DNA of 64,000 nt from Homoserinimonas sp. (GCA_040904805.1 JBBDSS010000004.1:2481-66480); one strand, 5' to 3'. Positions 47,094 to 60,506 are shown, counted from the stretch's first letter. Translations and numbers: made by a program. Notes: generated from the letters alone by a model not told the origin.

Positions 47094-48491
47094 TTATCCC
47101 AGCAACGGCGGACGCCCGAACGGCGCGGCCGCCTCGTAGGCGGCACCGGCGCGCAGCACCAGGGCGTCGGCGTGACGCGGCCCGACAAACTGCAGGCCGA
47201 TCGGCAGCCCGGCATCCGTCAGACCGCACGGTACCGAGAGACCGGGTTGCTGGGTCAGGTTGAACGGGTAGCTGAACGGCGTCCACTCCGCCCACCGCGT
47301 CAGGCCGGACCCGGGCGGCACCTCGACGCCGATCTCGAACGCCGGAATCGGGATGGTCGGGGTGACCAGCAGGTCGTACTGCTCGTGGAACGCCCCCATC
47401 CGAAGGCCCAGGTCGGCACGCACCTGGTTGGCGTCGAGGAAGTCCAGCGCGGTCATCCGGTGCCCCTGCAGTGAGACCTCGAGCAGGCCAGGGTCGAGCT
47501 CGTTCCAGCGCTCTTCCGGGTAACCCATGATGACCTTGCCCGCACCCGAGAACCACAGCGTGTGGTACGCCTCGATCGGGTCGCTGAAGCCCGGATCCAC
47601 CTCTTCGACGATGGCACCCAGATCGATCAGGACCTGCACGGCGGCGTCAACGGATGCCGCGACTTCCGGGTCCACGTCCACGTAGCCGAAGTCGCGGCTG
47701 TAGCCGATGCGCAGGCCGGCGATACCGTCGTGCAGGCCGGACGAGAACGAGGTGCGCGGCTGCGGCAGCGCCGACCAGTCGCGGGAGTCGAAGCCGGTGA
47801 GCACGTCCATCATCAGCGCGGCATCGCCGACGGTGCGGGTCATCGGCCCGGCGTGGGCGAGCGTGCCGAACGGGCTGGTCGGGTACAGCGGGATGGCGCC
47901 GTAGGTCGGCTTCAGGCCGACGATTCCGCTGAAGGAAGCCGGGATGCGAACCGAGCCGCCTCCATCCGTTCCCACCGACAGGGGAGCCATGCCAAGCGCG
48001 ACCGCCGCGGCCGACCCGCCGCTGGATCCGCCGCTGGTCTTGGACGGGTCCCAGGGGTTGCCGGTGCCGCCGGTGAGCGGATTGTCGGTGACGCCTTTCC
48101 AGCCGAACTCGGGGCTGGTCGTCTTGCCGACGAGGACGGCCCCGGCCCCGCGCAGTCTCGCGACCGAGGGGGCGTCCTCGGTCCATTCCTGGTCCGGTGA
48201 GATCAGCTTCGACCCGCGCAGGGTGGGCCAGCCTTCGGTCAGCAGGAGGTCCTTGATGCTGGTCGGCACCCCGTCGAGGAGCCCGGCCGGCGTCCCGGCC
48301 AGCCAGCGGGCTTCGGATGCGCGTGCCTGCCCCAGGGCGGACTCCTCATCGACCAGGCAGTAGGCGTTCACCTGGTCGTCGAGTTGCGCGATGCGCAGCA
48401 ACGCCGCCTCTGTCGCCTGGACCGGAGACAGTGACTTGTCGCGGTAGGCGGTGAGTAGTTCGGTGGCGGTGAGGTCGGCGAGTTGGTCCAT
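47094..48491 (-). CDS. amidase-signature family amidase
   Basis: 465 aa from ATG 48491. Signature GGSSGGSAAAVALGM. Confidence 0.85.
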   Translation of the reverse strand: MDQLADLTATELLTAYRDKSLSPVQATEAALLRIAQLDDQVNAYCLVDEESALGQARASEARWLAGTPAGLLDGVPTSIKDLLLTEGWPTLRGSKLISPDQEWTEDAPSVARLRGAGAVLVGKTTSPEFGWKGVTDNPLTGGTGNPWDPSKTSGGSSGGSAAAVALGMAPLSVGTDGGGSVRIPASFSGIVGLKPTYGAIPLYPTSPFGTLAHAGPMTRTVGDAALMMDVLTGFDSRDWSALPQPRTSFSSGLHDGIAGLRIGYSRDFGYVDVDPEVAASVDAAVQVLIDLGAIVEEVDPGFSDPIEAYHTLWFSGAGKVIMGYPEERWNELDPGLLEVSLQGHRMTALDFLDANQVRADLGLRMGAFHEQYDLLVTPTIPIPAFEIGVEVPPGSGLTRWAEWTPFSYPFNLTQQPGLSVPCGLTDAGLPIGLQFVGPRHADALVLRAGAAYEAAAPFGRPPLLG

Positions 48492-48518: not shown

Positions 48519-48531
48519 GATTGTCAACAAT
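48519..48531 (-). promoter_or_regulatory. 13-nt motif ATTGTTGACAATC, site 1 (candidate GntR operator)
   Basis: Exact 13-mer on the minus strand, about 28 nt upstream of the amidase ATG. Confidence 0.5.
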
Positions 48532-48570
48532 GCGCTTGGCTTCCTCCTCCGCGGACCCCTAGAATGTATT

Positions 48571-48583
48571 ATTGTTGACAATC
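48571..48583 (+). promoter_or_regulatory. 13-nt motif ATTGTTGACAATC, site 2 (candidate GntR operator)
   Basis: Exact 13-mer, 30 nt upstream of ATG 48613. -10-like TAGAAT at 48560-48565 lies just upstream. Confidence 0.5.
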
Positions 48584-48612
48584 TGCAACTTCCGTACTGA
48601 GGACACCAAGAG

Positions 48613-49869
48613 ATGACATCGCTGAGCCCACTCCTGAAGCAAGCAACTCCCGTCGTTGTCGAGCGCGCGCTCGGTAGCTGGATCTACGGCACTGACGGCG
48701 AGAAGTACTTGGACTTCACCACGGGGATCGGCGTCACCAGCACCGGGCACTGCCACCCGCGGGTTGTCGAGGCCGCGCGTGAGCAGGCCGGCGTCATCAT
48801 CCACGCGCAGTACACGACGGTCATGCACAAACCGCTGATGGCACTGACCGAGAAGCTGGGCGAGGTGCTGCCGAGCGGGCTCGACAGCGTGTTCTACGCC
48901 AACTCCGGGTCAGAAGCGGTCGAGGCATCCATCCGGCTGGCCCGTATGGCCACCGGCCGCCCCAACATCATCGCCTTCCACGGCGGGTTTCACGGTCGCA
49001 CCGTCGCCGCAGCATCCCTGACCACCGCAGGAACCAAGTTCCGCTCCGGCTTCAGCCCGATCATGGGCGGCGTGCACATTGCGCCGTTCCCGAACGCGTT
49101 CCGCTACGGCTGGAGCCTCGACACGGCCATCGACTTCGCCCTGCGCGAGCTCGACTTCCTGCTGCAGACCGTCTCGTCGCCGGCCGACACCGCCGGCTTC
49201 ATCATCGAGCCGGTGCTCGGCGACGGCGGCTACCTGCCCACCCCGCCGCGCTTCCTGGAAGGCGTGCGCGAGCGTGCTGACAGGCACGGCATCGTGCTCA
49301 TCCTCGACGAGGTGCAGGCCGGCGTCGGCCGCACCGGCAAGTTCTGGGGCCACAACCACAGCACGGTGACACCGGATGTCCTCATCACCGCCAAGGGACT
49401 GGCCAGCGGTTTCCCGATTTCGGCCATCGCGGCATCCGCCGAGCTGATGAGCAAGGCATGGCCGGGCTCGCAGGGCGGAACCTACGGGGGAAATGCGGTT
49501 GCTGCTGCTGCCGCGGTCGCCACCCTTGATGTGGTGCGTGACGAGAACCTCGTCGAGAACGCCCGAGTTCGCGGCGACGAGTTGCAGGCCGGAATCAAGG
49601 CGCTCCAGGCCGACAATCCGCTCATGGGTGACGTGCGTGGGCTCGGCCTGATGCAGGCCGTCGAGTTCGTCACCGAGAGCGGGGAGCCGAACGCGGACCT
49701 CGCTGCTGCCGTACAGCAGGCCGCGATCGCCGAGAACCTGCTGCTGCTCACCTGCGGTCCTGCCGGCAACGTGGTGCGGGTCATCCCGGCCCTGACCGTC
49801 TCTGCCGAGGAGATCATCACCGGGATCGACCGCTTCGGTGCTGCGCTGCGCGCGGCGCGGGGCGCGTAG
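48613..49869 (+). CDS. class III PLP aminotransferase (GabT / diaminobutyrate transaminase-like)
   Basis: 418 aa. Motifs ANSGSEAVE, DEVQAGVGRTGKFWG and TAKGLASG. Confidence 0.9.
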   Translation: MTSLSPLLKQATPVVVERALGSWIYGTDGEKYLDFTTGIGVTSTGHCHPRVVEAAREQAGVIIHAQYTTVMHKPLMALTEKLGEVLPSGLDSVFYANSGSEAVEASIRLARMATGRPNIIAFHGGFHGRTVAAASLTTAGTKFRSGFSPIMGGVHIAPFPNAFRYGWSLDTAIDFALRELDFLLQTVSSPADTAGFIIEPVLGDGGYLPTPPRFLEGVRERADRHGIVLILDEVQAGVGRTGKFWGHNHSTVTPDVLITAKGLASGFPISAIAASAELMSKAWPGSQGGTYGGNAVAAAAAVATLDVVRDENLVENARVRGDELQAGIKALQADNPLMGDVRGLGLMQAVEFVTESGEPNADLAAAVQQAAIAENLLLLTCGPAGNVVRVIPALTVSAEEIITGIDRFGAALRAARGA

Positions 49870-49887
49870 CCGCCCGCACGGGCGGGA

Positions 49888-52866
49888 GTGGTGCCAGCTA
49901 TGACGATGACAGCTACTGAACCGACGACGGCGGCACCCGTTGCCGCCCTCCGGGAGCGCGGCGTCGCCCTCGACACCGACTCGCGTCGCCTCGCCGAGTA
50001 CTCCTACGACGCATCCAACTACCGCATCCGCCCGCTCGGGGTTGTCTTTCCCCGCACCGCCGAGGAGGTGGCCGCCACCCTGGCCGTCTGCTTCGAGCAT
50101 CGTGTGCCGGTGATCGGCCGTGGCGGAGGAACCTCGATGGCCGGCGGCGCTGTCGGTCCGGGCGTCGTGATCGACTTCTCCCGGTTCATGAACGCGGTGC
50201 TGCACATCGACGCCGAGGCGAAACAGGCGACGGCCGAAGCAGGGATCGTGCTCACCACCCTGCAGCGGGAGGTGCTGAACGCGACCGGCGGCACCCTCAC
50301 CTTCGCCCCCGACCCGTCGAGCAAGACCCGGGCGACGCTCGGCGGCTCGATCGCGAACGATGCCTGCGGCAATCACTCGGTGAGCTACGGTCGCACCTCC
50401 GACCACGTCATCGCGCTGAACCTGGTCACCGCCGATGGTCTGCAGCTGACCGCGACCCGCACCGGGCTCCACGCCACCATCGAGGGCGACCCCGCAGCCG
50501 CCGCCCGTGCCGAGAAGTTGACCGAGGAATTGAGGGTTCTCGCCGCAGCCAATCTCAGCATGTTCCGCCTCGAACTGGAGCGCATCCCGCGCCAGGTGTC
50601 CGGCTTCCACCTCGCACAACTGCTCCCGGAACACGGCTTCGATGTCGCCCGCGCCCTGGTCGGCAGCGAGGGAACCTGCGCCATCGTCGTCAGCGCCACG
50701 GTTCAGCTGGTCCCTGTCGCCCCGGCCGCCCTGCTGGTCACCCTCGGCTACGACGATGTGGTGGAGGCGGCCCAGGACGTCATGACCATCCTCGAGTTCA
50801 CCCCGGCCGCGATCGAGGGGATCGACGAGGCGATCGTAGACACCATGCGCCACCTGCGCGGCCATGATTCGGTGCGCGGGCTCCCCGAGGGAAAGGCCTG
50901 GCTCTACGTCGACCTCGACGGCGACGACCCTGCCGAGGTCGCCGCGAAGGCCGAAGAGCTCCTCGCCCGGCTGCGCCAGAACGGCAGGCTCATCGCCGGA
51001 CGCGCCGTTCCCAACATCACCGACCGCGCTTCGCTGTGGCGGGTGCGCGAGGACGGCGCCGGGCTGTCCGCCCGGCTGCACACCGGCGGAGAGTCCTGGC
51101 CCGGCTGGGAAGACTCGGCTGTCGCGCCAGAGAACCTCGCCGACTACCTCTCCGAATTCCGCGTGCTGTTGAGCCGGTTCGGGCTCGAAGGCGTGATGTA
51201 CGGGCACTTCGGTGCCGGCTGCATGCACGTGCGCATCACCTTCGACCTGAGAACGGATGACGGCCGCCGGGTGATGGAGGCGTTCATGCGCGAAGCCGCC
51301 ACCCTGGTCGTGAAGCACGGCGGCTCCCTCTCCGGGGAGCACGGCGACGGCCGGGCCCGCAGCGAACTGCTCCCGATCATGTACTCGGCCCAGATGCTGG
51401 ACGCCTTCGACGCGTTCAAGCGCGCCTGGGACCCGTCCGGCATCCTGAACCCGGGCATCCTGGTCGCCCCTGACAGCCTGGGTGAAAACCTCGCCCTGGC
51501 CGGAGTGCCGGAGAGGCAGTGGCGCACCAGCTTCGACCTCGCTCCGCGCACCCCATCGCCGACGCAGCACGCCGGCGACGACTTCGTGCACGCCGTGCAG
51601 GGCTGTGTCGGCATTGGCCGCTGCCGTACCGATGTCGGTGGCGTGATGTGCCCGAGTTACCGGGCAACCGGCGACGAAAAGGACTCCACCCGGGGGCGCG
51701 CGCGGGTGCTGCAGGAGATGGTCCGCGGAGCCAAGACCATCGACGAGGGGTGGAAGAGCGACGACGTGCGCGAGGTGCTCGACCTCTGCCTGTCGTGTAA
51801 GGCCTGCTCAACCGACTGCCCGGTCGGCGTCGACATGGCCACCTATAAGAGCGAGTTCTACGACCACTACTACCAGGGCCGCCTGCGCCCGCTCTCGCAC
51901 TACTCGCTCGGCTGGCTGCCGATCTGGCTGAAACTCACCGTGCGGGTCGCCCCGCTGCTCAACCTGGTGCTGCAGTCCCCGCTCGGCAAGGTCGTCGCCT
52001 TCCTCGGCGGCCTCACCACCAGGCGCACGCTTCCCCGGTTCGCCAGCGCGAAGCAGTTGCGGCGCGAGCTGGCGAAGAACGGCAAACCGGCCGCCAACGG
52101 GACCGGCGACATCGTCCTGGTCATCGACAGCTTCACCAAGGGCTTCCGGCCGGAGGTGGCCGGCGCTGCGCAGCGCGTGTTGAACACCACCGGGAACACC
52201 ATCGAGTGCAACGCCGAGGTCTGCTGCGGCCTCACCATGATCTCCACCGGGCAGCTCGGCAAGGCGAAGAGGACGCTGGCCCGCGCCGCCGAGAACCTGG
52301 ACGACGGCACCGACCGACCGATCGTGGTGATCGAGCCGAGCTGTGCCGCCGCCTTCAGGAAGGACCTGCCGGAGCTGATCCACACCGATGCCGCCCGCCG
52401 GGTCTCGGCGCGCATCCGCAGCTTCGCCGGCATGGTGAAGGAGCTGGCGGATGACGGCTGGCAACCGGAGTGGCCGAACGGCGCCCCGGCCGAAGTGACG
52501 GTGCAGACCCATTGCCACGAGTATTCGGTCTTCGGCGCGAAAGCCCAGAGCGCTGCCCTCCACGCGGTCGGGGTGTCGCAGATTCGGGAGGCGACCGGAT
52601 GCTGTGGTGTCGCCGGGAACTTCGGGTTCGAGCCCAGCCACTACGACGTCAGCATGCAGGTGGCCGAACAGGCGCTGATCCCCGCCCTCAAGAAGACTCC
52701 AGCCGACACCCCGGTGCTCGCCGACGGCTTCAGCTGCCAGATGCAGCTCATGCAGGTCGACCCCCACCGCACCGGACTGCACATCGCCGAACTCCTCGAC
52801 CCCGCCAAGCCAGCCCAGACCATCCAGCCCAGCCCCGCCAGCCCCGCAACTAAGGAACAACTATGA
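49888..52866 (+). CDS. FAD-linked oxidase fused to Fe-S/CCG-domain oxidoreductase (YdiJ/GlcD-GlcF-like)
   Basis: 992 aa. FAD-binding RGGGTSMAGGAVG. 4Fe-4S motif CLSCKACSTDCPVGVD. C-terminal Cys-rich CCG-like repeats. Confidence 0.85.
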   Translation: MVPAMTMTATEPTTAAPVAALRERGVALDTDSRRLAEYSYDASNYRIRPLGVVFPRTAEEVAATLAVCFEHRVPVIGRGGGTSMAGGAVGPGVVIDFSRFMNAVLHIDAEAKQATAEAGIVLTTLQREVLNATGGTLTFAPDPSSKTRATLGGSIANDACGNHSVSYGRTSDHVIALNLVTADGLQLTATRTGLHATIEGDPAAAARAEKLTEELRVLAAANLSMFRLELERIPRQVSGFHLAQLLPEHGFDVARALVGSEGTCAIVVSATVQLVPVAPAALLVTLGYDDVVEAAQDVMTILEFTPAAIEGIDEAIVDTMRHLRGHDSVRGLPEGKAWLYVDLDGDDPAEVAAKAEELLARLRQNGRLIAGRAVPNITDRASLWRVREDGAGLSARLHTGGESWPGWEDSAVAPENLADYLSEFRVLLSRFGLEGVMYGHFGAGCMHVRITFDLRTDDGRRVMEAFMREAATLVVKHGGSLSGEHGDGRARSELLPIMYSAQMLDAFDAFKRAWDPSGILNPGILVAPDSLGENLALAGVPERQWRTSFDLAPRTPSPTQHAGDDFVHAVQGCVGIGRCRTDVGGVMCPSYRATGDEKDSTRGRARVLQEMVRGAKTIDEGWKSDDVREVLDLCLSCKACSTDCPVGVDMATYKSEFYDHYYQGRLRPLSHYSLGWLPIWLKLTVRVAPLLNLVLQSPLGKVVAFLGGLTTRRTLPRFASAKQLRRELAKNGKPAANGTGDIVLVIDSFTKGFRPEVAGAAQRVLNTTGNTIECNAEVCCGLTMISTGQLGKAKRTLARAAENLDDGTDRPIVVIEPSCAAAFRKDLPELIHTDAARRVSARIRSFAGMVKELADDGWQPEWPNGAPAEVTVQTHCHEYSVFGAKAQSAALHAVGVSQIREATGCCGVAGNFGFEPSHYDVSMQVAEQALIPALKKTPADTPVLADGFSCQMQLMQVDPHRTGLHIAELLDPAKPAQTIQPSPASPATKEQL

Positions 52867-54341
52867 CCATCGCTGCACCGATCGTTGACGCACAGACCAT
52901 CATCTCGAAGCTGAAGACCGGCCTCTACCTGAACAACAAGTGGGTGGACGCCGAAGACGGCAAGACCTTCCCGGTCGAGAACCCGGCAACCGGCGAGGTG
53001 CTCGCGCACGTCGCTGACGGGTCGGTGGCGGATGCCGAACGCGCCATTGCTGCCGCCGGCGCCGCCCAGGCCGACTGGGCCAGGACGTCGCCGCGGGAAC
53101 GCAGCGAGATCCTGCGTCGGGCCTACGAGCTGATCATCGAGCGCACCGACGAGCTGGCCGCGATCATGACCGCCGAGATGGGCAAGCCGCTGGCCGAGGC
53201 CAGGGGAGAGGTCGTGTACGGCGCCGAGTTCTTCCGCTGGTTCTCCGAGGAAGCCGTGCGCATCAGCGGCGACTACACCACCACCGGCGACGGCAAGAGC
53301 CGCATCCTGGTCACCCGGGTGCCGGTCGGCCCCTGCGTTCTGGTGACGCCGTGGAATTTCCCGCTCGCGATGGGCACCCGCAAGATCGGACCGGCCGTCG
53401 CGGCCGGCTGCACCATGGTGTTCAAGCCGGCGGCGCAGACCCCGCTCACCTCTCTGGCGCTGGTGGCCATCCTCGAAGAGGCCGGCCTGCCATCCGGTGT
53501 CTTGAACGTGGTGACCACCTCGACGGCGTCCAAGGTCGTCGGCAGCTGGATGAGCAGCGGAATCGCCCGCAAGGTCAGCTTCACCGGCTCCACCGAGGTG
53601 GGCAAGATCCTGCTCACGCAGGCGGCCGAAAACGTCATGCGCTCCTCGATGGAGCTCGGCGGCAACGCCCCGTTCATCGTCTGCGCGGACGCCAACATCG
53701 ATACCGCCGTCGACGGAGCCATGCAGGCGAAACTGCGCAACATGGGGGAGGCCTGCACCGCGGCCAACCGCTTCCTCGTTCACCGTTCGGTCGCGGCCGA
53801 GTTCACCGAGAAGCTGGCGGCGCGGATGGCTGCCCTGACGGTGGGCGACGGTAGCGTCGCCGGCACCGACATCGGGCCGCTGGTCGACCAGGCAGGCCTG
53901 GACAAGGTGCAGTTGTTCGTCGACGACGCCGTGAACCGCGGCGCGACCGTCGTCACCGGCGGAAGCCGACCGGAGGGCGCCGGCTACTTCTACACCCCGA
54001 CCGTGCTCGCCGATGTGAGCCCCGAATCCGAGTTGATGAGCGCCGAGATTTTCGGACCGGTGGCGCCCATCGTGCCGTTTGACGACGAGAATGAGGCCAT
54101 CCGCATCGCCAACGACACCGAGTGGGGTCTGGTCGGATACATTTTCACTCAGGACATCGACCGTGCCCTCCGCCTCGGCGAAGAGCTGGAGGTCGGTATG
54201 GTCGGGTTGAACTCCGGTTTGGTGTCCAACCCGGCAGCACCATTCGGCGGGGTCAAGCAGTCCGGGCTTGGCCGCGAAGGCGGGCGCGTCGGCATCGACG
54301 AGTTCCTGGAATACAAGTACCTGGCAATCCCGCGCCGCTAG
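52863..54341 (+). CDS. NAD(P)-dependent aldehyde dehydrogenase (succinate-/aspartate-semialdehyde dehydrogenase-like)
   Basis: 492 aa. Motifs MELGGNAPFIV and catalytic Cys in GEACTAANRF. Its ATG overlaps the upstream stop (ATGA). Confidence 0.9.
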   Translation: MTIAAPIVDAQTIISKLKTGLYLNNKWVDAEDGKTFPVENPATGEVLAHVADGSVADAERAIAAAGAAQADWARTSPRERSEILRRAYELIIERTDELAAIMTAEMGKPLAEARGEVVYGAEFFRWFSEEAVRISGDYTTTGDGKSRILVTRVPVGPCVLVTPWNFPLAMGTRKIGPAVAAGCTMVFKPAAQTPLTSLALVAILEEAGLPSGVLNVVTTSTASKVVGSWMSSGIARKVSFTGSTEVGKILLTQAAENVMRSSMELGGNAPFIVCADANIDTAVDGAMQAKLRNMGEACTAANRFLVHRSVAAEFTEKLAARMAALTVGDGSVAGTDIGPLVDQAGLDKVQLFVDDAVNRGATVVTGGSRPEGAGYFYTPTVLADVSPESELMSAEIFGPVAPIVPFDDENEAIRIANDTEWGLVGYIFTQDIDRALRLGEELEVGMVGLNSGLVSNPAAPFGGVKQSGLGREGGRVGIDEFLEYKYLAIPRR

Positions 54342-54366
54342 GCCGGGAACACTCAAGGAGAACACT

Positions 54367-55065
54367 ATGGCTGGCGAAGATGGCTTGGCTGCCCTGGAGG
54401 GCAGGCCAACATCCGTACTGATTGCGGACCAATTGCGCGAGCGGATCATCGACGGGTCGTTCCGGCCCGGCGAGCAGATTCGCGAGGCCAGCCTGGTCGA
54501 GAAGCTGCAGGTGTCGCGCGGCCCGGTGCGGGAGGCGCTGCAGAGGCTGAGCCAGGAGGGTCTGCTGGTCAGCCACCGCAACCGCGGCGTCTTCGTGCTC
54601 GACCTGTCGGTGGGCGACGTCGCCGAGATCTACGCGGCGCGCGAGGCCATCGAGCTGGGCGCGGCCGAGGCCATCCTCGAGCTCCCACCGGAGGCCATCG
54701 CGGCGACGGTGAAGTCGCTGTCGAAGATCGTCGGCAAGATGGGTCCACTGGTGGCGGCGAAAGACTGGCGCACCCTGGCCGAACTTGACCTCAGCTTTCA
54801 CGTCGCGTTCGTCGCCAGCGCCAAGAACTCCCGCCTGTCGAAGATCTACTCGACGCTGGCCGCCGAGTCGCGCATCTGCATCGTCAATCTGGAGGGGTCG
54901 TACCCGCACGCCCACGCCCTGGTCGAAGAGCACCAGCAGCTTGTAGCCCTGGTGGCCAGCGGCGACGGCGCACAGCTGAGCGCCGCCATCCGCAAGCATA
55001 TGGAACTCGCCGTACGCGACCTGACGGCTTCCATGGTGGCCTCAGGCCAGTCGCTCCCCGCCTGA
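54367..55065 (+). CDS. GntR-family (FadR/FCD subfamily) transcriptional regulator
   Basis: 232 aa from ATG 54367, 7 nt after AAGGAG. wHTH LVEKLQVSRGPVREALQRLSQEGLL. Helical C-terminal FCD-like domain. Confidence 0.85.
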   Translation: MAGEDGLAALEGRPTSVLIADQLRERIIDGSFRPGEQIREASLVEKLQVSRGPVREALQRLSQEGLLVSHRNRGVFVLDLSVGDVAEIYAAREAIELGAAEAILELPPEAIAATVKSLSKIVGKMGPLVAAKDWRTLAELDLSFHVAFVASAKNSRLSKIYSTLAAESRICIVNLEGSYPHAHALVEEHQQLVALVASGDGAQLSAAIRKHMELAVRDLTASMVASGQSLPA

Positions 55066-55105
55066 GTCGAAACCGCTTGCGGAGCGGCAGCGCACCCGCT
55101 AGCGT

Positions 55106-55118
55106 GATTGTCAACAAT
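55106..55118 (-). promoter_or_regulatory. 13-nt motif ATTGTTGACAATC, site 3 (candidate GntR operator)
   Basis: Exact 13-mer on the minus strand, in the 79-nt gap between the GntR stop and GTG 55145 of the M24 gene. Confidence 0.5.
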
Positions 55119-55144
55119 CTACCAAAGAAGATGGATGTGCCTGC

Positions 55145-56329
55145 GTGGAGATCTCGCAACATGAATACGACGAGCGCCTGCGCAACGTTCGTGCCCGGAT
55201 GACCGACCAGGGCCTCTCGGCGCTCCTGGTCTCCGACCCGTCGAACCTCTACTACCTGACCGGCTACAACGCCTGGTCGTTCTACACACCGCAGTTCCTG
55301 TTCGTCCCGGCCAGCGGCGACCTCATCCTGTTCGCCCGGGCGATGGACGCCGGCGGCGCCCACCGCACCGCCTGGCTGCCGAAAACCCAGATCATCGGAT
55401 ACCCGGAGACCCTGGTGCACCGCCCGCACGAGCATCCGTTCGACTGGGTGGGCGCCCAGCTGCGGGAACTCGGGGTGGTGGCCGACGCATCCGCCGGCCA
55501 GGTCGGGCTCGAGCTCGACTCCCACTTCTTCTCGCCGAAGGCCTACCTCTCCCTGCTGAACGCCCTGCCAGAGTGGAAATTCGTCGACAGCTACGAACTC
55601 GTCAACTGGGTGCGGGTCGTCAAGTCGCCGGCAGAGATCGGCCTGATGCGCATCGCTGCCGACGTCTGCACCAACGCCATGAACGCCGCAATCGACAACA
55701 TCCGGGTCGGCGCCCGCCAGTGCGACGTCGCTGCCGAGATCAGCCGGGCCCAGATCGCCGGCACCCCGGAGCACGGCGGCGACTACCCGGCGATCGTGCC
55801 GATGATGCCGATGGGGGCGGCGGCAGACACCCCGCACCTGACCTGGACCGAAGACCCGTTCATCGACAACCAGGGCGTCTCGGTGGAGATCGCCGGCACG
55901 CATAAGCGGTACCACGTGCCGCTGGCCCGCACCATCATGCTGGGCACGCCCACCAGCGAGCTGCAGAAAGTCGTCGGCGCAGTCGGCGAAGGCGTCGAAT
56001 CGGTGCTGAGCATCATCCGCCCTGGCGTGCAGGCCCGCGAACTGGCGGCGGCCTGGGATGCCACGCTCGCCAAGTACGGGCTGTCGAAGCCGTCGCGCAT
56101 CGGCTACTCCATCGGCATCGGCTACCCGCCGGACTGGGGAGAGCGCACCGTCAGCCTGCGCGGTGACGACGAGACCGTGCTGCAGGAGAACATGACCTTC
56201 CACCTGATGTGCGGCATGTGGATGGACGACTACGGCTACGAACTGTCCGAACCCTTCCGGGTCTCGGCAGACGGCGTCGAGACGTTCACCTCGCTGCCTC
56301 GCGACCTGATCTACGCAAGGAATCGATAA
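55145..56329 (+). CDS. M24-family hydrolase (creatinase/prolidase fold; ectoine hydrolase DoeA/EutD-like)
   Basis: 394 aa. The N-terminal region LLVSDPSNLYYLTGYNAWSFYTPQ and the pita-bread C-terminal domain resemble the DoeA/creatinase subgroup by eye. Confidence 0.75.
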   Translation: MEISQHEYDERLRNVRARMTDQGLSALLVSDPSNLYYLTGYNAWSFYTPQFLFVPASGDLILFARAMDAGGAHRTAWLPKTQIIGYPETLVHRPHEHPFDWVGAQLRELGVVADASAGQVGLELDSHFFSPKAYLSLLNALPEWKFVDSYELVNWVRVVKSPAEIGLMRIAADVCTNAMNAAIDNIRVGARQCDVAAEISRAQIAGTPEHGGDYPAIVPMMPMGAAADTPHLTWTEDPFIDNQGVSVEIAGTHKRYHVPLARTIMLGTPTSELQKVVGAVGEGVESVLSIIRPGVQARELAAAWDATLAKYGLSKPSRIGYSIGIGYPPDWGERTVSLRGDDETVLQENMTFHLMCGMWMDDYGYELSEPFRVSADGVETFTSLPRDLIYARNR

Positions 56330-57552
56330 TGAGCACCACCACGCTGCCGTTCGCGGCCCGCGCCAGCCGCCTCACCGGGTCGATCATCGACTCGAGCACC
56401 TCGCTCCTGGCCGCGCAGACTCACGACATCGTGCGCTTCGCCATGGGGTCGCCGGCGGATGAGGCGGTGCCGCTCGACGAGTTCAGGGACATCGCGGCCA
56501 GCGAGCTCGACTACAGCAGCTTCACCTACGGCGCGACCGAGGGGGAGCCGGAGCTGCTGGAACAGTTGGTCGACTACCTGTCGACCACCCCGGAGCCGAC
56601 ATCACTCGATCGGATCATCGTCACCGCCGGTGGCATGCAGGGTCTCGACCTGGCCTGCAAGATCTTCGTCGACCCGGGCGACCTGGTTATCGTCGAGAGC
56701 CCGACCTACACGAACGGCAGCGCCACCGCCGCCAGCTACGGGGCCGAACTGCTCGAAGCGCCGATGGACGACGACGGGCTCATCGTGGAGGCCCTGCCCG
56801 AGCTGGTGGCGAAGGCCGGCCGCACCCCCAAGGCGATCTACGTCATCCCGAACTTCCAGAACCCCTCCGGCACCACGCTGTCCGCCGCCCGCCGCGAGCA
56901 CCTGCTTGAACTGGCGCACGAGTGGAATGCTGTCATCATCGACGACGACCCCTACGGGCTGCTGCGTTTCGCCGGCGAAGAACTGCCCGGCTTCCAGAGC
57001 CTCAGCCCGGCCGACCCGCTGCTGTTCTCGGTGCGCACCTTCTCCAAAATCCTGGCCCCCGGCCTGCGCGTCGGCTGGGTCGACACCGACCCGGCCATCC
57101 GCCAGCTGGTCATCAACGCCAAGCAGGCGATGGACACCTGCACCAATGTCCCGGCGCAGCAGATGGTGGCCGAATTCATCCGTCGCGGCGGACTGAGCGA
57201 CCACCTGGAGTCGATCAAAAAGACCTACCTCGAGCGCAAGAACGCGATGACCGAGAGCATCACCCGCCACCTGGGCGACCGGGTGCGGATGACCGACCCG
57301 GAGGGCGGCTTCTTCCTCTGGGTGACCCTGCAGGGCGAGGATGCGAAGACCTCGACCTCCGCGCTGTTCGAGACCGCCCTGGCAGAGGGCGTCGCGTTCA
57401 TCCCCGGACCGGCGCTGTCGGCCAGCGGCAAATTCGATGACGCGCTGCGCCTGTGCTTCGCCTCGTCCACGCCCGACCGCATCGATGAAGGCGTGCGGCG
57501 GCTGGCCAGGGCCCTCGATCAGCACCGTGCCCTTGATCGAGCCCGGCTATGA
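56329..57552 (+). CDS. class I/II PLP-dependent aminotransferase
   Basis: 407 aa from ATG 56329, sharing TAATG with the upstream stop. PLP-Lys context RTFSKILAPGLRVGW. Confidence 0.8.
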   Translation: MSTTTLPFAARASRLTGSIIDSSTSLLAAQTHDIVRFAMGSPADEAVPLDEFRDIAASELDYSSFTYGATEGEPELLEQLVDYLSTTPEPTSLDRIIVTAGGMQGLDLACKIFVDPGDLVIVESPTYTNGSATAASYGAELLEAPMDDDGLIVEALPELVAKAGRTPKAIYVIPNFQNPSGTTLSAARREHLLELAHEWNAVIIDDDPYGLLRFAGEELPGFQSLSPADPLLFSVRTFSKILAPGLRVGWVDTDPAIRQLVINAKQAMDTCTNVPAQQMVAEFIRRGGLSDHLESIKKTYLERKNAMTESITRHLGDRVRMTDPEGGFFLWVTLQGEDAKTSTSALFETALAEGVAFIPGPALSASGKFDDALRLCFASSTPDRIDEGVRRLARALDQHRALDRARL

Positions 57553-58733
57553 CCACTGCGGCTGAGCAGGAACTGCTCGACCGCATCGACACCGACCAAC
57601 TGCGGGAGCTGACCCTGGCCCTGGTCGGCGCCGCGGGCGAGAACCCGGGTTCCACCGAGGAAGCGACAGTCTCAGTGCTGACGGATGCCTGCGAGAGGTA
57701 CGGCTTCACCGTCGAGCTCCAGGATGTCGCCCCCGGGCGGCAGAACCTGATCGCCACCCTGTCCGGCGGCAGCGAGCTCGGCCTGATGTTCCTCGGCCAC
57801 TCGGATGTGGTCCCGGCCGGCGAAGGCTGGAAAAGCGAACCCTTCGAACCGTTCGTGGAAGACGGACGCCTGTACGGCCGCGGCTCGACCGACATGAAAG
57901 GCGGTCTCGCGGCCGTCATTCTCGCGATGGCCGCCCTGTCGGCGACGCCGCTGCGCGGGCCGGTGCAGCTGGTCTGCACTGTCGACGAGGAAGACCTGGG
58001 GCTCGGCATCCGCGCCTACGCTCCGACAGCGCCGCGCGGGATGTTCGCCGGCTGTGTCGTCGCCGAACCCACTGACCTGCAGACGGTCATCGGATGCCGC
58101 GGCGACAGCTACCTGCGCCTGGGCGTCACCGGCAAGGCGGCGCACTCCGGCCGGCCGGATGACGGCCGCAACGCGATCGCGGCAGCGGCCCGGGTGTTCG
58201 AGCTGCTGCGCGCGAACCATCACGAACTGAAGGAGCATCCCGACCCGCTGCTCGGCTCCGGCACCTGGAGCATCGGCAGCATCGTCGGCGGAACCGGCAC
58301 CTCGATCGTCGCAGCCGACTGCGCCGCGGCAGTCGACCGACGGCTGATGCCGGGCGAGAATGCCCAGGACATCGCCGACGACCTGAAGACCCGCATCCGC
58401 GAGGCCGGCATCGACGGCGACGGCATCGAGGTGAGCGTCGAGGTCGAGATGGAGATGCCCGGCTTTCGAACCGACCCCGAGCATCCGCTGGTCGCCGCCG
58501 GAGTCGACGCCATCGACGACGCCGGGGGAGGCCGCATCGCCATCGGCGGCTGGACCGCCGCCTGCGATGGTGGCTTCATCGCCCGCGACGTCGGGGTCTC
58601 CTGCATCGTGCTCGGCCCTGGTGGCCTCAACGACCAGGCGCACCAGGCCAACGAGTCGGTCGGGCTCGAGGAGCTGGAAGTCGCCACGCGGGCATATGCC
58701 TTGCTCGCCATACGAACCGTAGGAGTCGCATGA
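57549..58733 (+). CDS. M20-family metallopeptidase/deacylase (ArgE/DapE-like)
   Basis: 394 aa. Motifs GHSDVVP, GRGSTDMKGG and TVDEE. Overlaps the upstream stop by 4 nt. Confidence 0.85.
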   Translation: MTTAAEQELLDRIDTDQLRELTLALVGAAGENPGSTEEATVSVLTDACERYGFTVELQDVAPGRQNLIATLSGGSELGLMFLGHSDVVPAGEGWKSEPFEPFVEDGRLYGRGSTDMKGGLAAVILAMAALSATPLRGPVQLVCTVDEEDLGLGIRAYAPTAPRGMFAGCVVAEPTDLQTVIGCRGDSYLRLGVTGKAAHSGRPDDGRNAIAAAARVFELLRANHHELKEHPDPLLGSGTWSIGSIVGGTGTSIVAADCAAAVDRRLMPGENAQDIADDLKTRIREAGIDGDGIEVSVEVEMEMPGFRTDPEHPLVAAGVDAIDDAGGGRIAIGGWTAACDGGFIARDVGVSCIVLGPGGLNDQAHQANESVGLEELEVATRAYALLAIRTVGVA

Positions 58734-59698
58734 TCCTCGTAGTGCTGTATCAGGAGGGGCTGCCGGAAGGCATGGCCGAGATCGAAGCCGTCGCCGAGGT
58801 GCGGTACACCCGGGCGGACGGGCTGGCTGAGGCGATCAGGGGAGCGGATGCGCTGCTGCTCTGGGACTTCTTCTCCACCGCGGTCAAGGACATCTGGCAG
58901 AACTGCGACTCGCTCACCTGGATCCACGTGGCCGCGGCCGGGGTCGACAAGTTGCTGTTCGACGAGCTGCGGGAGTCCGGCGTCATTGTCACCAACTCGC
59001 GCGGAATTTTCGATCGGCCGATCGCCGAGTTCGTGCTGGCCAGCATCCTGGCGTTCGCCAAAGACCTGCCAGGGTCGCTGCGGCGGCAGCAGGCGGCAGT
59101 GTGGGAACACCGCGAGACCGAGCGGATCGATGCCTCGACGGCGCTCATCGTCGGCACCGGGTCGATCGGCCGCGAGACAGCCCGGCTGCTGTCGGCGGTC
59201 GGCATGCGGGTGTCCGGCGTAGGGCGCACCGACCGTGTTGGTGACCCCGACTTCGGGGTGGTGCATGCGGCAGGCCGGCTGGCATCCGTCGTCGCCGACA
59301 GCGACTATGTGGTGCTGATCGCCCCGCTGACGGATGCGACGCGCGGCATGGTGGACGCCGAGGTGCTCGCGGCGATGAAGCCGCCCGCCCGCCTGGTCAA
59401 CGTCGGTCGCGGGGAACTGCTCGACGACGAGGCCCTGGTCGACGCGCTGCGGTCCGGGACGATCGCCGGTGCTGCCCTCGACGTCTTCAGCACCGAACCG
59501 CTGCCGCGCGACAACGCGCTGTGGGGACTCGAGAACGTGCTCATCTCGTCGCACCTCAGCGGCGACGCCGTCGGATGGCTGGAACGGCTCTCCGCGCTGT
59601 TCGGCGAGAACACGCGCCGCTACCTCGACGGCGCCCCCCTGCTCAACGTCGTAGACAAGCAACTGGGCTTCGTCCCACCGGACCCGCGCCCCCGATAG
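58730..59698 (+). CDS. D-isomer-specific 2-hydroxyacid dehydrogenase family protein
   Basis: 322 aa. Motifs IVGTGSIGRETARLL, NVGRGELLD and SSHLSG. Overlaps the upstream stop by 4 nt. Confidence 0.85.
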   Translation: MILVVLYQEGLPEGMAEIEAVAEVRYTRADGLAEAIRGADALLLWDFFSTAVKDIWQNCDSLTWIHVAAAGVDKLLFDELRESGVIVTNSRGIFDRPIAEFVLASILAFAKDLPGSLRRQQAAVWEHRETERIDASTALIVGTGSIGRETARLLSAVGMRVSGVGRTDRVGDPDFGVVHAAGRLASVVADSDYVVLIAPLTDATRGMVDAEVLAAMKPPARLVNVGRGELLDDEALVDALRSGTIAGAALDVFSTEPLPRDNALWGLENVLISSHLSGDAVGWLERLSALFGENTRRYLDGAPLLNVVDKQLGFVPPDPRPR

Positions 59699-59704
59699 GT
59701 ACGA

Positions 59705-60436
59705 CTACCCGCGGAAGAGGGTTCCCAGGCCGGGGAGCTTGAGCGGACGCCCGGCGATCCGCAGGCCCTCCCATACGGTGACCTGGTTCGCGGTGAGCAC
59801 GACCTTGCCGGTGGCCTGCTCCAGGTCGTCGACCCAGCGCAGGGAGTGCATGGCGGTGTCCGGGATGAGGATGGCCTCGGCATCCGCGTGGTCTGCCGCC
59901 TTCGCCATGGCGATCACCTGCTCCCTGTCCAGCAACCCGACCTCGCCGGCGGTGGCGATGTCGTTGCTCTGGAACGACACGACCTCGATGCCGGCGTCCC
60001 CGAGAAACCGCTTGAAGTGCTGGGCCAGGTCGTCCGGGTAGCTGGCCGCCACGGCGACCTTGCCGACGCCGAGCGCACGGCAGGCCTGGGCGAATGCGAT
60101 CGACGTCGACGAGGTGGGGATCCCGATCGCCTGGGCGACCTCATCCGCCTGGTCATGGGCGCCTCCCCAGCCATAGACGAAGCTGCCGGAGGTGCACGCC
60201 CAGATGACCGCATCCGGGGAGAATGCGGCGACCTCCCGGGCGCCCTCCAGGAGGTTTTCGCTGCCGCCGACCGCGAGCAGTTCCTCGACGAGGTGCGCCA
60301 CATCGCCGCCAGCGGTGAGAACCAGGGGGAGCCGCAGCACGCCGTCGTGGGCTTCCTCCAGGTACGGGAAGTCGTCTTCCGCTCCCACCCCCGGGTAAAG
60401 CAGCCCAACAGAAGGCACGGTGTTCAACTCGGTCAT
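59705..60436 (-). CDS. Asp/Glu racemase - arylmalonate decarboxylase - maleate isomerase family protein (EutA-like)
   Basis: 243 aa from ATG 60436. The family call is by eye (ACTSGSF, IPTSSTS, C-terminal VLTANQVTVWE). A paralog lies at 63799..>64000. Confidence 0.65.
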   Translation of the reverse strand: MTELNTVPSVGLLYPGVGAEDDFPYLEEAHDGVLRLPLVLTAGGDVAHLVEELLAVGGSENLLEGAREVAAFSPDAVIWACTSGSFVYGWGGAHDQADEVAQAIGIPTSSTSIAFAQACRALGVGKVAVAASYPDDLAQHFKRFLGDAGIEVVSFQSNDIATAGEVGLLDREQVIAMAKAADHADAEAILIPDTAMHSLRWVDDLEQATGKVVLTANQVTVWEGLRIAGRPLKLPGLGTLFRG

Positions 60437-60473
60437 GGCTGCCCTTCCAAACGAGATCAAAAAGTGTTCGTTG

Positions 60474-60506
60474 ATTGTTGACAATCCTACACAGAGTGAA
60501 TAGGTT
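60474..60506 (+). promoter_or_regulatory. 13-nt motif ATTGTTGACAATC, site 4, embedded in a candidate promoter (TTGACA-17 nt-TAGGTT)
   Basis: Motif at 60474-60486. Its TTGACA (60478-83) sits exactly 17 nt before TAGGTT (60501-06), upstream of the ABC transporter operon and divergent from the racemase-like gene. Confidence 0.5.

What the first reader, a model, noticed from the sequence alone, without database searches (positions are those of the whole stretch)
48519..60486. Identical 13-nt motif ATTGTTGACAATC at four promoter regions: candidate operator of the embedded GntR regulator
Seen: exact copies occur at 48519-31 (minus strand), 48571-83 (plus), 55106-18 (minus) and 60474-86 (plus), and I saw no others in the window. 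All four lie in intergenic promoter regions. Two sit in the divergent amidase/aminotransferase gap, each about 30 nt from its start codon and oriented toward it. One sits between the GntR stop and the M24 gene. One sits in the divergent racemase-like/ABC transporter gap. The core ATTGT-TG-ACAAT is a near palindrome of the GT-N-AC type associated with GntR/FadR-family operators. It also contains a consensus -35 hexamer TTGACA. At site 4 that hexamer is exactly 17 nt from TAGGTT. Inference: one regulator (54367..55065) controls at least four transcription units covering 47.1 kb to beyond 64 kb, probably by occluding the promoters.
Basis: partly seen in the sequence, partly recalled or inferred. 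Interest (0 to 1): 0.6.

Follow-up and report, generated by a model that had tools for sequence, protein, structure and literature searches.

The report
GntR repressor operator of osmolyte-breakdown genes
A 14-base palindrome repeated in front of the operons of an 18-kb nutrient-uptake and breakdown gene island is almost certainly the docking site of the GntR-type repressor encoded in the island; this is an ordinary, well-known kind of switch, seen here on a little-studied actinobacterial ectoine-type gene set.

Summary
The 13-mer occurs four times in the window (0 expected). It occurs five times in the whole 3.03-Mb genome, all within 16 kb; the fifth copy lies about 600 bp past the window end. 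The real unit is a 14-bp palindrome, GATTGT-YR-ACAATC.

Orthologues of the embedded GntR/FCD regulator sit in the same gene set in 21 loci from other Actinomycetia. Those loci hold 55 copies of ATTGT-NN-ACAAT (about 0.02-0.04 expected). None lies inside a recognised cluster gene, and nearly all lie in front of one. In six other whole genomes the 14-mer occurs only 2-3 times, all but one copy next to the regulator.

The regulator's recognition helix (VSRGPVREA) matches that of proteobacterial PhnR and PrpR. Their published predicted sites are the same words. None of the 13 FCD paralogues in this genome has this helix.

Repression by promoter occlusion is inferred. Sites 4 and 5 contain the -35 hexamer, an arrangement conserved in about 20 sites elsewhere. 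Sites 2 and 3 lie at the -10/+1 region of other promoters.

No expression or binding data could be obtained. The effector is unknown. This is a new member of a known kind.

The parts
48519..48532 (-). Operator site 1 (GATTGTCAACAATg on the + strand; 13/14 of the palindrome). TTGACA points to the amidase gene.
   Evidence: It lies 27 nt upstream of the amidase ATG. On the minus strand the layout is TTGACA-18-CAAACT-6-ATG with no Shine-Dalgarno sequence, which suggests a leaderless amidase mRNA (inference). It also lies 5 nt upstream of the -35 hexamer of the aminotransferase promoter.
48570..48583 (+). Operator site 2 (tATTGTTGACAATC; 13/14).
   Evidence: It lies 4-5 nt downstream of the predicted -10 TAGAAT, so it covers the predicted start site of the aminotransferase-YdiJ-ALDH-GntR operon. 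Its centre is 52 bp from the centre of site 1. The same site, with the same ATCTGCAA flank, precedes the orthologous gene in Rhodococcus yunnanensis.
48536..48565 (+). Predicted promoter TTGGCT-18-TAGAAT of the aminotransferase-YdiJ-ALDH-GntR operon.
   Evidence: the only sigma-70-like match in 48400-48700; shuffles gave a mean of 0.1.
47094..48491 (-). Amidase-signature-family amidase.
   Evidence: Pfam PF01425 (1.8e-104). NCBIfam PRK06169 scores 744 bits, above its cut-off of 506. It is a member of the conserved core regulon.
48613..49869 (+). Class-III (GABA/DABA-type) aminotransferase.
   Evidence: PF00202, 5.2e-114. Core regulon member, 61-79% identical in other loci.
49888..52866 (+). 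YdiJ-like FAD/Fe-S oxidoreductase (D-2-hydroxyacid dehydrogenase type).
   Evidence: PF01565, PF02913, Fer4 and CCG domains. NCBIfam YdiJ scores 459 bits, below its cut-off of 1350. Accessory member: present in L005 and L040.
52863..54341 (+). Succinate-semialdehyde-dehydrogenase-like aldehyde dehydrogenase.
   Evidence: PF00171, 9.5e-166. TIGR01780 scores 585 bits, below its cut-off of 646. Core regulon member.
54367..55065 (+). GntR-family regulator with a wHTH and an FCD domain (FadR/VanR-type). It is the proposed repressor and the last gene of the operon controlled by sites 1 and 2, so it would be autoregulated.
   Evidence: PF00392 (2e-20) and PF07729 (2.5e-20). The best NCBIfam hit is phnR_burk TIGR03338 at 131 bits, below its cut-off of 271.5. 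The closest structure is 2HS5. The recognition helix VSRGPVREA is unique among the 14 FCD proteins of the genome.
55106..55119 (.). Operator site 3 (GATTGTCAACAATC; perfect 14-mer) between the GntR stop and the M24 start.
   Evidence: A TAnnnT hexamer, TAGCGT (55100-55105), abuts it, and TTGCGG lies 17 nt upstream. The Rhodococcus locus has the same layout (TAGCCT-GATTGTCAACAATC). No terminator is predicted between GntR and M24.
55145..56329 (+). M24 hydrolase related to ectoine hydrolase DoeA/EutD.
   Evidence: PF01321 and PF00557. TIGR02993 scores 421 bits, below its cut-off of 613.
56209..57552 (+). Class I/II aminotransferase closest to the sensor domains of MocR-type regulators, but without a wHTH. 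The true start is probably near 56293-56330.
   Evidence: PF00155. The best NCBIfam hits are PdxR, YczR, MocR and EhuR over residues ~70-435 only. The alignment to L005 starts at residue 29.
57549..58733 (+). M20 ArgE/DapE-type deacylase.
   Evidence: PF01546 and PF07687. TIGR01910 scores 224.9 bits, above its cut-off of 217.6.
58730..59698 (+). D-2-hydroxyacid dehydrogenase.
   Evidence: PF02826 and PF00389. Core regulon member. In other genomes it heads its own operator-controlled HADH-amidase operon.
59705..60436 (-). Amdase/EutA-like (Asp/Glu/hydantoin-racemase superfamily) protein 1.
   Evidence: PF17645, 9.6e-24. TIGR02990 eutA scores 84 bits, below its cut-off of 318. Core regulon member.
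60473..60486 (+). Operator site 4 (GATTGTTGACAATC; perfect 14-mer) in the divergent Amdase-like / ehuB gap.
   Evidence: TTGACA (60478-60483), 17 nt, then TAGGTT (60501-60506). The same TTGACAAT(C/G)-N-TAnnnT layout precedes ehuB in L040 and L053 and HADH in 17 loci.
60597..63729 (+). ehuBCDA-type ABC importer: substrate-binding protein 60597-61496, permeases 61576-62274 and 62271-62930, ATPase 62863-63729.
   Evidence: All four proteins score above the NCBIfam equivalog cut-offs for the ectoine/hydroxyectoine transporter: EhuB 260.7>190.9, EhuC 233.2>197, EhuD 242.5>205.2, EhuA 372.4>345.4.
63799..64000 (-). 3' part of the Amdase/EutA-like gene 2. The gene runs to window-equivalent 64593. Operator site 5 (tATTGTTGACAATC) follows at 64607-64620, and the DUF3830 gene at 64679-65182. 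All of these lie beyond the window end.
   Evidence: L001:279-1073 minus strand; site L001:1087-1100; DUF3830 L001:1159-1662, PF12903 5.5e-65. At site 5, TTGACA is followed after 18 nt by TAGTCT.

Best explanation
The 14-bp palindrome GATTGT-YR-ACAATC is the operator of the GntR/FCD (FadR/VanR-type) regulator encoded at 54367-55065. A dimer, or possibly a dimer of dimers, binds five operators in four intergenic regions. Together these cover about seven transcription units and 16 genes (window 47.1 kb to about 65.2 kb): amidase; aminotransferase-YdiJ-ALDH-GntR, which makes the regulator autoregulated; M24-aminotransferase-M20-HADH; Amdase-like 1; ehuBCDA; Amdase-like 2; and DUF3830. Without inducer the protein most likely blocks RNA polymerase. 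At sites 4 and 5, and probably site 1, the operator contains the -35 hexamer TTGACA. At sites 2 and 3 it lies directly downstream of the -10 hexamer, over the start site. A metabolite of the pathway would bind the FCD domain and release the DNA. The pathway takes up and degrades an ectoine-type, nitrogen-rich solute. What is shown: the motif, its positions, its genome-wide specificity, its conservation with the regulator and target genes, and the match of the recognition helix to regulators with the same predicted sites. What is inferred: binding itself, the sign of regulation, the transcription start sites and the inducer.
For: There are five exact 13-mers in 3.03 Mb, all within 16 kb around the regulator gene, and 6 core sites genome-wide against 0.27 expected. 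Pfam finds only one DNA-binding protein in the island. Orthologous regulators (38-57% identity; 50-71% in the HTH) lie in the same gene set in 21 loci from at least 8 families of Actinomycetia. These loci hold 55 core sites in 389 kb against 0.015-0.04 expected. None of the sites lies inside a recognised cluster gene, and nearly all sit in front of AT3/ALDH, HADH-amidase, Amd-Amd-GntR, ehuB or M24, even though the operons are rearranged. In six other genomes of 3.0-6.7 Mb the 14-mer occurs 2-3 times, and all but one copy lie within about 10 kb of the regulator; the reversed-pattern control gave 0. Rhodococcus yunnanensis has the same gene order and the same two sites, before AT3 and between GntR and M24. 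The recognition helix/wing VSRGPVREALQRL..EGLL..NRGVFV matches PhnR (NVSRGPVREAFRALEQAGLL..NRGV) and PrpR (VSRGPLREA). Their predicted sites in the Suvorova 2015 supplement are ATTGTTGACAAT and ATTGTCAACAAT. The 10 FCD paralogues of this genome that aligned carry SRTP, SRAT, SRSP, SVVP or SATP instead. P. aeruginosa PrpR binds its promoter fragment, which carries ATTGTCGACAAT, in EMSA and acts as a repressor (PMC9765439). On geometry: TAnnnT follows the TTGACA strand at 16-19 nt in 21 of 45 CA/TG-centred sites, against 1 of 45 on the other strand. The promoter TTGGCT-18-TAGAAT ends 4-5 nt before site 2. TAGCGT (window) and TAGCCT (Rhodococcus) abut site 3.
Against: The -10 hexamers at sites 4 and 5 (TAGGTT, TAGTCT) fail the E. 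coli-type scan and rest on the actinobacterial TAnnnT rule and on conservation. ATTGT-N2-ACAAT is used by many different FCD regulators, so the motif alone does not identify the protein. One homologue with the same helix (L059) has no core motif within 20 kb. The 21 loci are related, so the counts are not independent events. The regulator scores below the PhnR cut-off. Its effector is unknown. The conserved core of the regulon lacks the DoeA-like hydrolase and the Ehu transporter in most genomes, so 'ectoine' is only a working label.
Confidence: 0.87

Rival explanations
1. The palindrome is bound by the embedded regulator, but the protein activates transcription or acts in both directions. For example, it could recruit polymerase at the promoters where the site overlaps -35.
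For: Some FadR-subfamily proteins act both ways (E. coli FadR activates fabA; established knowledge). At sites 4 and 5 the operator centre falls near -33.
Against: A site centred on the -35 hexamer occludes it, whereas activator sites usually sit near -41.5 or further upstream. Sites 2 and 3 lie over the predicted -10/+1 region. The closest studied relatives, PrpR and Atu1419, are repressors.
Confidence: 0.07
2. The motif is recognised by a different FCD/GntR paralogue (the genome has 14 FCD proteins), or is shared with one, and the embedded regulator is not the main binder.
For: ATTGT-N2-ACAAT is a generic word for a large clade of FCD regulators (earlier notes). A sixth core site lies on another contig, upstream of a D-amino-acid-dehydrogenase-like gene.
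Against: No aligned paralogue has the SRGP recognition helix, and their HTH identity is only 35-48%. The motif travels with this regulator's orthologues in 21 loci and is otherwise absent from those genomes.
Confidence: 0.04
3. The word is only an extended -35 promoter element, or the remnant of a repeat or mobile element, and binds no dedicated protein.
For: It contains the consensus -35 hexamer TTGACA. Sites 4 and 5 share the extension ATCCTAC.
Against: Conservation is two-fold symmetric outside the hexamer: the flanking G/C is kept in 85% of sites. Fourteen of 60 sites have a CG centre and therefore no TTGACA. At site 3 the hexamer faces away from the downstream gene. Sequence beyond about 17 nt is unrelated between copies.
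Confidence: 0.02

Closest known systems
PhnR of Betaproteobacteria (NCBIfam TIGR03338 phnR_burk; regulon and sites predicted by comparative genomics in Suvorova et al. 2015, PMC4494728)
   Same: It is a GntR wHTH + FCD protein and the best NCBIfam hit of the window regulator. It has the same recognition-helix signature, VSRGPVREA...GLL...NRGV, and the same predicted sites, ATTGTTGACAAT / ATTGTCAACAAT, placed in divergent promoter regions of its own cluster.
   Different: The score of 131 bits is far below the family cut-off of 271.5. The target genes differ: 2-aminoethylphosphonate utilisation there, an ectoine-type uptake and catabolic set here. The phylum also differs. PhnR sites are themselves predictions.
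GntR-type PrpR (PA0797) of Pseudomonas aeruginosa, repressor of the 2-methylcitrate operon (PMC9765439)
   Same: It is an FCD-type GntR repressor with the palindrome ATTGTCGACAAT upstream of its own operon. EMSA shows binding to that promoter fragment, and genetics shows repression. It carries the SRGPLREA helix. It belongs to the GT-N2-AC spacing class.
   Different: It controls a different pathway, has a different (unknown) effector, uses a single site, and is proteobacterial.
Atu1419 of Agrobacterium fabrum (VanR-group FCD repressor; PDB 6Z74, 6ZA3; PMC7797058)
   Same: It is the third-best solved-structure match (E = 8.9e-13). It binds short GT-N2-AC palindromes that overlap the -10 boxes of divergent promoters. 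It has several sites per region and forms a tetramer that can loop DNA. This is a model for the paired sites 1 and 2, 52 bp apart.
   Different: Its palindrome is ATGTATACAT. It controls hydroxycinnamate degradation. The oligomeric state of the window protein is unknown.
EnuR/EhuR (MocR-type) and AsnC/DoeX regulators of proteobacterial ectoine catabolic clusters (PMC5924519, PMC8739950)
   Same: They give substrate-inducible control of an Ehu-type importer together with DoeA/EutD-, aminotransferase- and aldehyde-dehydrogenase-type genes.
   Different: They belong to a different regulator class (a PLP-dependent MocR fold with direct-repeat sites, against an FCD fold with a palindrome). The island has no EnuR or AsnC. 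It does contain a MocR-like aminotransferase domain that lacks a DNA-binding head.

Membership tests
FadR-subfamily (FCD) GntR regulator with a GT-N2-AC palindromic operator | The regulator has an N-terminal GntR wHTH and a C-terminal all-helical FCD domain. | tested here: met
   PF00392 (2e-20, residues 19-77) and PF07729 (2.5e-20, residues 87-213).
FadR-subfamily (FCD) GntR regulator with a GT-N2-AC palindromic operator | An A/T-rich palindrome with TKGT/ACMA boxes and 2 nt between GT and AC, as in the GntR, HpxS, HypR, MdcY, PrpR and UxuR groups (PMC4494728). | tested here: met
   The motif is ATTGT-YR-ACAAT, that is TTGT-N2-ACAA.
FadR-subfamily (FCD) GntR regulator with a GT-N2-AC palindromic operator | The sites lie in promoter regions of the regulator's own operon and of neighbouring catabolic or transport operons, and they are conserved with the regulator across genomes. 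| tested here: met
   Five sites in four intergenic regions here. There are 55 sites in 21 orthologous loci, none inside a recognised cluster gene. Genome-wide specificity was checked.
FadR-subfamily (FCD) GntR regulator with a GT-N2-AC palindromic operator | The protein binds the palindrome in vitro, and a small-molecule effector releases it. | not testable with these tools
   This needs EMSA, footprinting or ITC. The RNA-seq route was closed.
PhnR (TIGR03338, phosphonate-utilisation-associated regulator) | A score above the curated equivalog cut-off. | tested here: not met
   131.3 bits against a cut-off of 271.5. The regulator is not a PhnR orthologue, although its DNA-reading head and site are alike.
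PhnR (TIGR03338, phosphonate-utilisation-associated regulator) | Neighbouring 2-aminoethylphosphonate utilisation genes. | tested here: not met
   No phosphonate gene was found in the 16-gene island.
Ectoine/hydroxyectoine uptake and catabolism cluster (ehuABCD-eutABCDE / doeABCD type) | An EhuABCD-type ABC importer. | tested here: met
   All four subunits score above the NCBIfam equivalog cut-offs.
Ectoine/hydroxyectoine uptake and catabolism cluster (ehuABCD-eutABCDE / doeABCD type) | The ectoine hydrolase EutD/DoeA at equivalog level. | tested here: not met
   TIGR02993 scores 421 bits against a cut-off of 613. The protein is related but below threshold.
Ectoine/hydroxyectoine uptake and catabolism cluster (ehuABCD-eutABCDE / doeABCD type) | The EutE/DoeB deacetylase, EutB and EutC, and an EnuR or AsnC regulator. 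| tested here: not met
   No island protein hit such families. An M20 deacylase, two weak EutA-like proteins (84 and 97 bits against a cut-off of 318) and an FCD regulator take their places.
Ectoine/hydroxyectoine uptake and catabolism cluster (ehuABCD-eutABCDE / doeABCD type) | Growth on, or induction by, ectoine or hydroxyectoine. | not testable with these tools
   This needs a physiological experiment.

The most novel reading that the evidence does not exclude
The operator marks a regulon found across Actinomycetota. Its conserved core is two Amdase/EutA-like proteins, DUF3830, an AS-family amidase, a D-2-hydroxyacid dehydrogenase, a class-III aminotransferase and an aldehyde dehydrogenase. 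This core may be a so far undescribed route for degrading ectoine, hydroxyectoine or a related nitrogen-rich osmolyte. The route would be controlled by an FCD repressor instead of EnuR/AsnC. The operator has been selected to double as the -35 element of several promoters: the centre is TG/CA in 75% of sites and never TA. The repressor's inducer would then be a new pathway intermediate.
Probability: 0.3. Interest if true: 0.6.

Novelty: new member of a known kind. Interest (0 to 1): 0.35.

Why it matters
The switch itself is textbook. Its value is practical.

- **It defines the regulon.** It marks out, with high confidence, the full set of 16 co-regulated genes. A conserved eight-gene core within that set includes proteins of unknown reaction (DUF3830 and two Amdase/EutA-like proteins).
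- **It fills a gap in the ectoine literature.** Ectoine consumers were long thought to be restricted to Proteobacteria (PMC5924519). Putative Gram-positive clusters were reported only in 2026, and that paper names no GntR-type regulator (no occurrence of 'GntR'; PMC13188858).
- **It offers an experimental handle.** The operator and repressor pair can be used to find the inducer and hence the substrate of the pathway.
- **It could serve as a tool.** The 14-bp operator is tight and specific, so the pair could be developed as an inducible expression system for high-GC actinobacteria.

Tried and rejected
- **Literature search by sequence strings**. Most hits were primers; only the P. aeruginosa PrpR paper was relevant.
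- **Search for 'DUF3830' in papers**. It returned nothing.
- **The search for related loci with the single regulator protein**. It gave one true relative (Rhodococcus yunnanensis) and one irrelevant weak hit (L006).
- **Search of 60 near relatives**. Only two distant orthologues turned up. The island is absent from the other 36 same-family genomes searched, so footprinting had to use the whole class.
- **HypR of Streptomyces as a relative**. Rejected, because its experimentally determined motif differs (CTNTGC(A/C)ATGTCAC).
- **The E. coli-type promoter scan**. It finds nothing at sites 3-5, because TAGGTT, TAGTCT and TAGCGT match only 3 of 6 positions of TATAAT. The promoter calls at these sites rest instead on the TAnnnT rule and on conservation.
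- **One-mismatch variants genome-wide**. They are at chance level and were not counted as regulon members.
- **'-35 hexamer at every site'.** Rejected for site 3 (wrong strand) and for site 2 (no -10 hexamer at 16-19 nt).
- **Repeat or mobile-element origin.** Rejected, because the flanks are unrelated.

Full report
**Observation**

The 13-mer ATTGTTGACAATC occurs exactly four times in the window, at the stated coordinates and strands. None was found in 100 dinucleotide-preserving shuffles. Allowing two mismatches adds only the reverse readings of sites 3 and 4. This shows that the real unit is a 14-bp palindrome, GATTGT-YR-ACAATC. It is perfect at 55106-55119 and 60473-60486, and 13/14 at 48519-48532 and 48570-48583.

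The assembly holding the window has 3.03 Mb in 20 contigs at 65% G+C. It contains only five exact 13-mers, all within C4:50999-67100. The fifth lies about 600 bp beyond the window end, at window-equivalent 64608-64620.

The 10 specified bases of the core ATTGTnnACAAT occur six times genome-wide, against 0.27 expected. The sixth copy is on contig C18, 93 nt upstream of a D-amino-acid-dehydrogenase-like gene. One-mismatch variants number 15 against 11.5 expected. That is chance level.

**Gene context**

ORF listing with Pfam and NCBIfam gives an 18-kb island, listed here in map order:
- AS-family amidase (minus strand).
- Sites 1 and 2.
- Class-III aminotransferase, YdiJ-like FAD/Fe-S oxidoreductase, SSADH-like aldehyde dehydrogenase and the GntR/FCD regulator.
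- Site 3.
- DoeA/EutD-like M24 hydrolase, a class I/II aminotransferase that resembles MocR sensor domains but lacks a DNA-binding head, an M20 deacylase and a D-2-hydroxyacid dehydrogenase.
- Amdase/EutA-like protein 1 (minus strand).
- Site 4.
- An ABC importer whose four subunits all exceed the NCBIfam equivalog cut-offs for the ectoine/hydroxyectoine transporter EhuBCDA.
- Amdase/EutA-like protein 2 (minus strand).
- Site 5.
- DUF3830.

The GntR/FCD protein is the only DNA-binding protein found in the island. It is the last gene of the operon headed by sites 1 and 2. The gene gaps in that operon are 18 nt, a 4-nt overlap, and 25 nt. The regulator would therefore be autoregulated.

**Comparative test of the regulator-motif link**

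Among 60 near relatives, only two distant genomes have an orthologue of the regulator. The island is absent from the other 36 same-family genomes searched.

A scan of GTDB representative genomes found Rhodococcus yunnanensis. Its regulator is 57% identical, its enzymes are 54-79% identical, and the gene order is the same. It has GATTGTTGACAATC 46 nt before the aminotransferase gene. It has GATTGTCAACAATC between the regulator and the M24 gene. These are the same two places as window sites 2 and 3, and the ATCTGCAA flank and the strand are also the same.

A sample of 400 genomes of the class gave 31 genomes (17 genera) with a homologue at E <= 1e-35. I fetched 20-kb regions around 25 homologue loci and mapped the window's proteins onto them. 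In 21 of the loci the homologue sits in the same gene set or carries the motif nearby. The operons are shuffled among these loci.

The conserved core is the class-III aminotransferase, the aldehyde dehydrogenase, the regulator, both Amdase-like genes, DUF3830, the hydroxyacid dehydrogenase and the amidase. The M24/aminotransferase/M20 module, the YdiJ-like gene and EhuABCD are accessory.

These 21 loci (389 kb) contain 55 exact ATTGTnnACAAT sites. The expectation is 0.015 from base composition and 0.04 from first-order Markov simulations. None of the 60 sites, counting the window's five, falls inside a recognised cluster gene. Nearly all lie in front of one of the following:
- the aminotransferase / aldehyde-dehydrogenase divergent pair;
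- the HADH-amidase operon;
- the Amd-Amd-GntR operon;
- ehuB;
- the M24 gene.

The flanking G and C that make the site a 14-mer are kept in 85% of sites.

In six other whole genomes (3.0-6.7 Mb) the 14-mer occurs only two or three times. Every copy but one lies within about 10 kb of the regulator gene. The reversed-pattern control gave zero.

**Which protein reads the motif**

The genome encodes 14 FCD-domain proteins. Only the embedded one has the recognition helix and wing VSRGPVREALQRL..EGLL..NRGVFV. All orthologues in the other loci share this signature, with 50-71% identity over the head. The 10 paralogues of this genome that aligned over the head carry SRTP, SRAT, SRSP, SVVP or SATP, and are 35-48% identical.

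The best NCBIfam hit of the regulator is the PhnR family of Burkholderia, below its cut-off. The supplement of Suvorova et al. 2015 pairs the PhnR heads (NVSRGPVREAFRALEQAGLL..NRGV) with the predicted sites ATTGTTGACAAT and ATTGTCAACAAT. It pairs the GntR-type PrpR heads (VSRGPLREA) with ATTGTCAACAAT. The same paper places the PrpR, MdcY and GntR groups in the FadR-subfamily class with 2 nt between GT and AC.

For P. aeruginosa PrpR, EMSA shows binding to the promoter fragment that carries ATTGTCGACAAT. Genetics shows that it is a repressor.

The window regulator therefore has the DNA-reading head that goes with this word. This argument is independent of gene position.

**How it probably works**

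The central dinucleotide is CA/TG in 45 of 60 sites, CG in 14, and never TA. Most sites therefore carry TTGACA on one strand.

On that strand a TAnnnT hexamer follows at 16-19 nt in 21 of 45 sites. On the opposite strand it does so in 1 of 45. The 21 sites include all HADH promoters (gATTGTTGACAATCCTAyg-N9-TAGCGT, in 17 loci) and ehuB promoters in L040 and L053.

- **Sites 4 and 5.** Window site 4 (TTGACA-17-TAGGTT, in front of ehuB) and site 5 (TTGACA-18-TAGTCT, in front of DUF3830) have this conserved design. The operator centre falls at about -33, so a bound protein would exclude RNA polymerase from the -35 region.
- **Site 1.** Read toward the amidase gene, it gives TTGACA-18-CAAACT-6-ATG with no ribosome-binding site. 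This suggests a leaderless mRNA, which is an inference.
- **Site 2.** It lies 4-5 nt downstream of the only sigma-70-like promoter predicted in the gap, TTGGCT-18-TAGAAT at 48536-48565. It therefore covers the predicted start site.
- **Site 3.** It abuts TAGCGT (55100-55105), with TTGCGG 17 nt upstream. The Rhodococcus site abuts TAGCCT in the same way. Here the TTGACA is on the strand facing away from the M24 gene, so the '-35' reading does not apply.

No terminator-like hairpin separates the regulator gene from the M24 gene, so site 3 may also act as a roadblock.

Sites 1 and 2 are 52 bp apart centre to centre, which is about five helical turns. Paired sites 96-273 bp apart recur in other loci. 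Atu1419 is the third-best solved-structure match (6Z74). It is a tetramer that binds GT-N2-AC palindromes over -10 boxes and loops DNA. Cooperative binding here is possible but untested.

An inducer that binds the FCD domain and releases the DNA is expected from family knowledge. Its identity is unknown.

**What the regulon does**

The Ehu-type importer (above cut-offs), the DoeA-like hydrolase, a deacylase, a DABA/GABA-type aminotransferase and an SSADH-like dehydrogenase point to an ectoine-type solute. However, the hydrolase is below its equivalog cut-off. EutB, EutC, EutE, EnuR and AsnC are absent. The core conserved in other genomes lacks the hydrolase and the importer. 'Ectoine-type' is therefore a working label.

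A 2018 review states that ectoine consumers are restricted to Proteobacteria. A 2026 paper reports putative clusters in Actinomycetota and never mentions a GntR-type regulator.

**Comparison, novelty and verdict**

This is a canonical FadR/VanR-type GntR operator and local regulon. It has the same kind of site, the same reading head and the same promoter-overlapping placement as PhnR, PrpR and Atu1419. It is not a member of the PhnR equivalog family, because both the score and the gene context fail. It is not an EnuR-type ectoine regulator either.

Earlier notes of this scan independently describe the same island as ectoine-type. They also describe the same palindrome as the operator of several other FCD regulators. 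I used them as leads. I checked the PhnR and Atu1419 leads in the papers themselves.

I rate the finding as a new member of a known kind. Its interest is modest, and lies mainly in defining a little-studied actinobacterial catabolic regulon and giving a handle on its unknown inducer.

No binding or expression evidence could be obtained.

Noticed in passing
window-equivalent 64607-64620 (L001:1087-1100), just beyond the window end: A fifth exact copy of the motif lies in the divergent gap between a second Amdase/EutA-like gene (window 63799 to about 64593, minus strand) and a DUF3830 gene (about 64679-65182). TTGACA is followed after 18 nt by TAGTCT. This extends the regulon to about 65.2 kb.
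   Followed up: yes
genome contig C18:212179-212190 (L036:5179-5190): This is the only core site (aATTGTCAACAATa) outside the island. It lies 93 nt upstream of a D-amino-acid-dehydrogenase-like FAD oxidoreductase (L036:5272-6519) and after a TrmH-like methyltransferase gene. It may be a remote regulon member or a chance site.
   Followed up: partly
window 56209-57552: The class I/II aminotransferase is closest to the sensor domains of MocR-type regulators (PdxR, YczR, MocR, and also the ectoine regulator EhuR), but it has no wHTH. There is no room for one, because the M24 gene ends at 56329. It is an enzyme-only relative of the canonical ectoine regulators, sitting in an ectoine-type operon.
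   Followed up: partly
window 47094-64000 and beyond: The island is absent from the other 36 same-family genomes searched, including the one other species of the genus. Its best match is Rhodococcus yunnanensis, in a different order, with the same gene order and 54-79% protein identity. A DUF222-HNH gene lies directly to the left (45372-47024). Horizontal acquisition is likely.
   Followed up: partly
L039, L042-L049, L051 (for example L042:7930-7980): In about 10 other genomes a conserved element, CTGGACAC-N(~18)-GGATGtTTCCATAGC, lies directly upstream of the operator on the aminotransferase side. It does not fit a TTGACA/TAnnnT promoter. It may be a second regulatory site or a promoter for an alternative sigma factor.
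   Followed up: no
all 60 sites (window plus 21 loci): The central dinucleotide of the palindrome is CA/TG in 75% of sites, CG in 23%, and never TA. This is more asymmetric than independent half-site choice predicts (47%, 38% and 14%). It fits selection for an embedded TTGACA, or a preference for a flexible CA/TG step.
   Followed up: partly
genome contig C3:147580-147592 (L037:4580): A one-mismatch variant, ATTGATGACAATC, lies about 2.6 kb from another FCD regulator gene (C3:144618-144992). It may be the operator of that paralogue.
   Followed up: no
L059 (G405:C1:1185001-1205000): A homologue with the same SRGP recognition helix sits next to ABC ATPase genes, but has no ATTGTnnACAAT site (at most one mismatch allowed) within 20 kb. 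It is an exception to the link between helix and motif.
   Followed up: no
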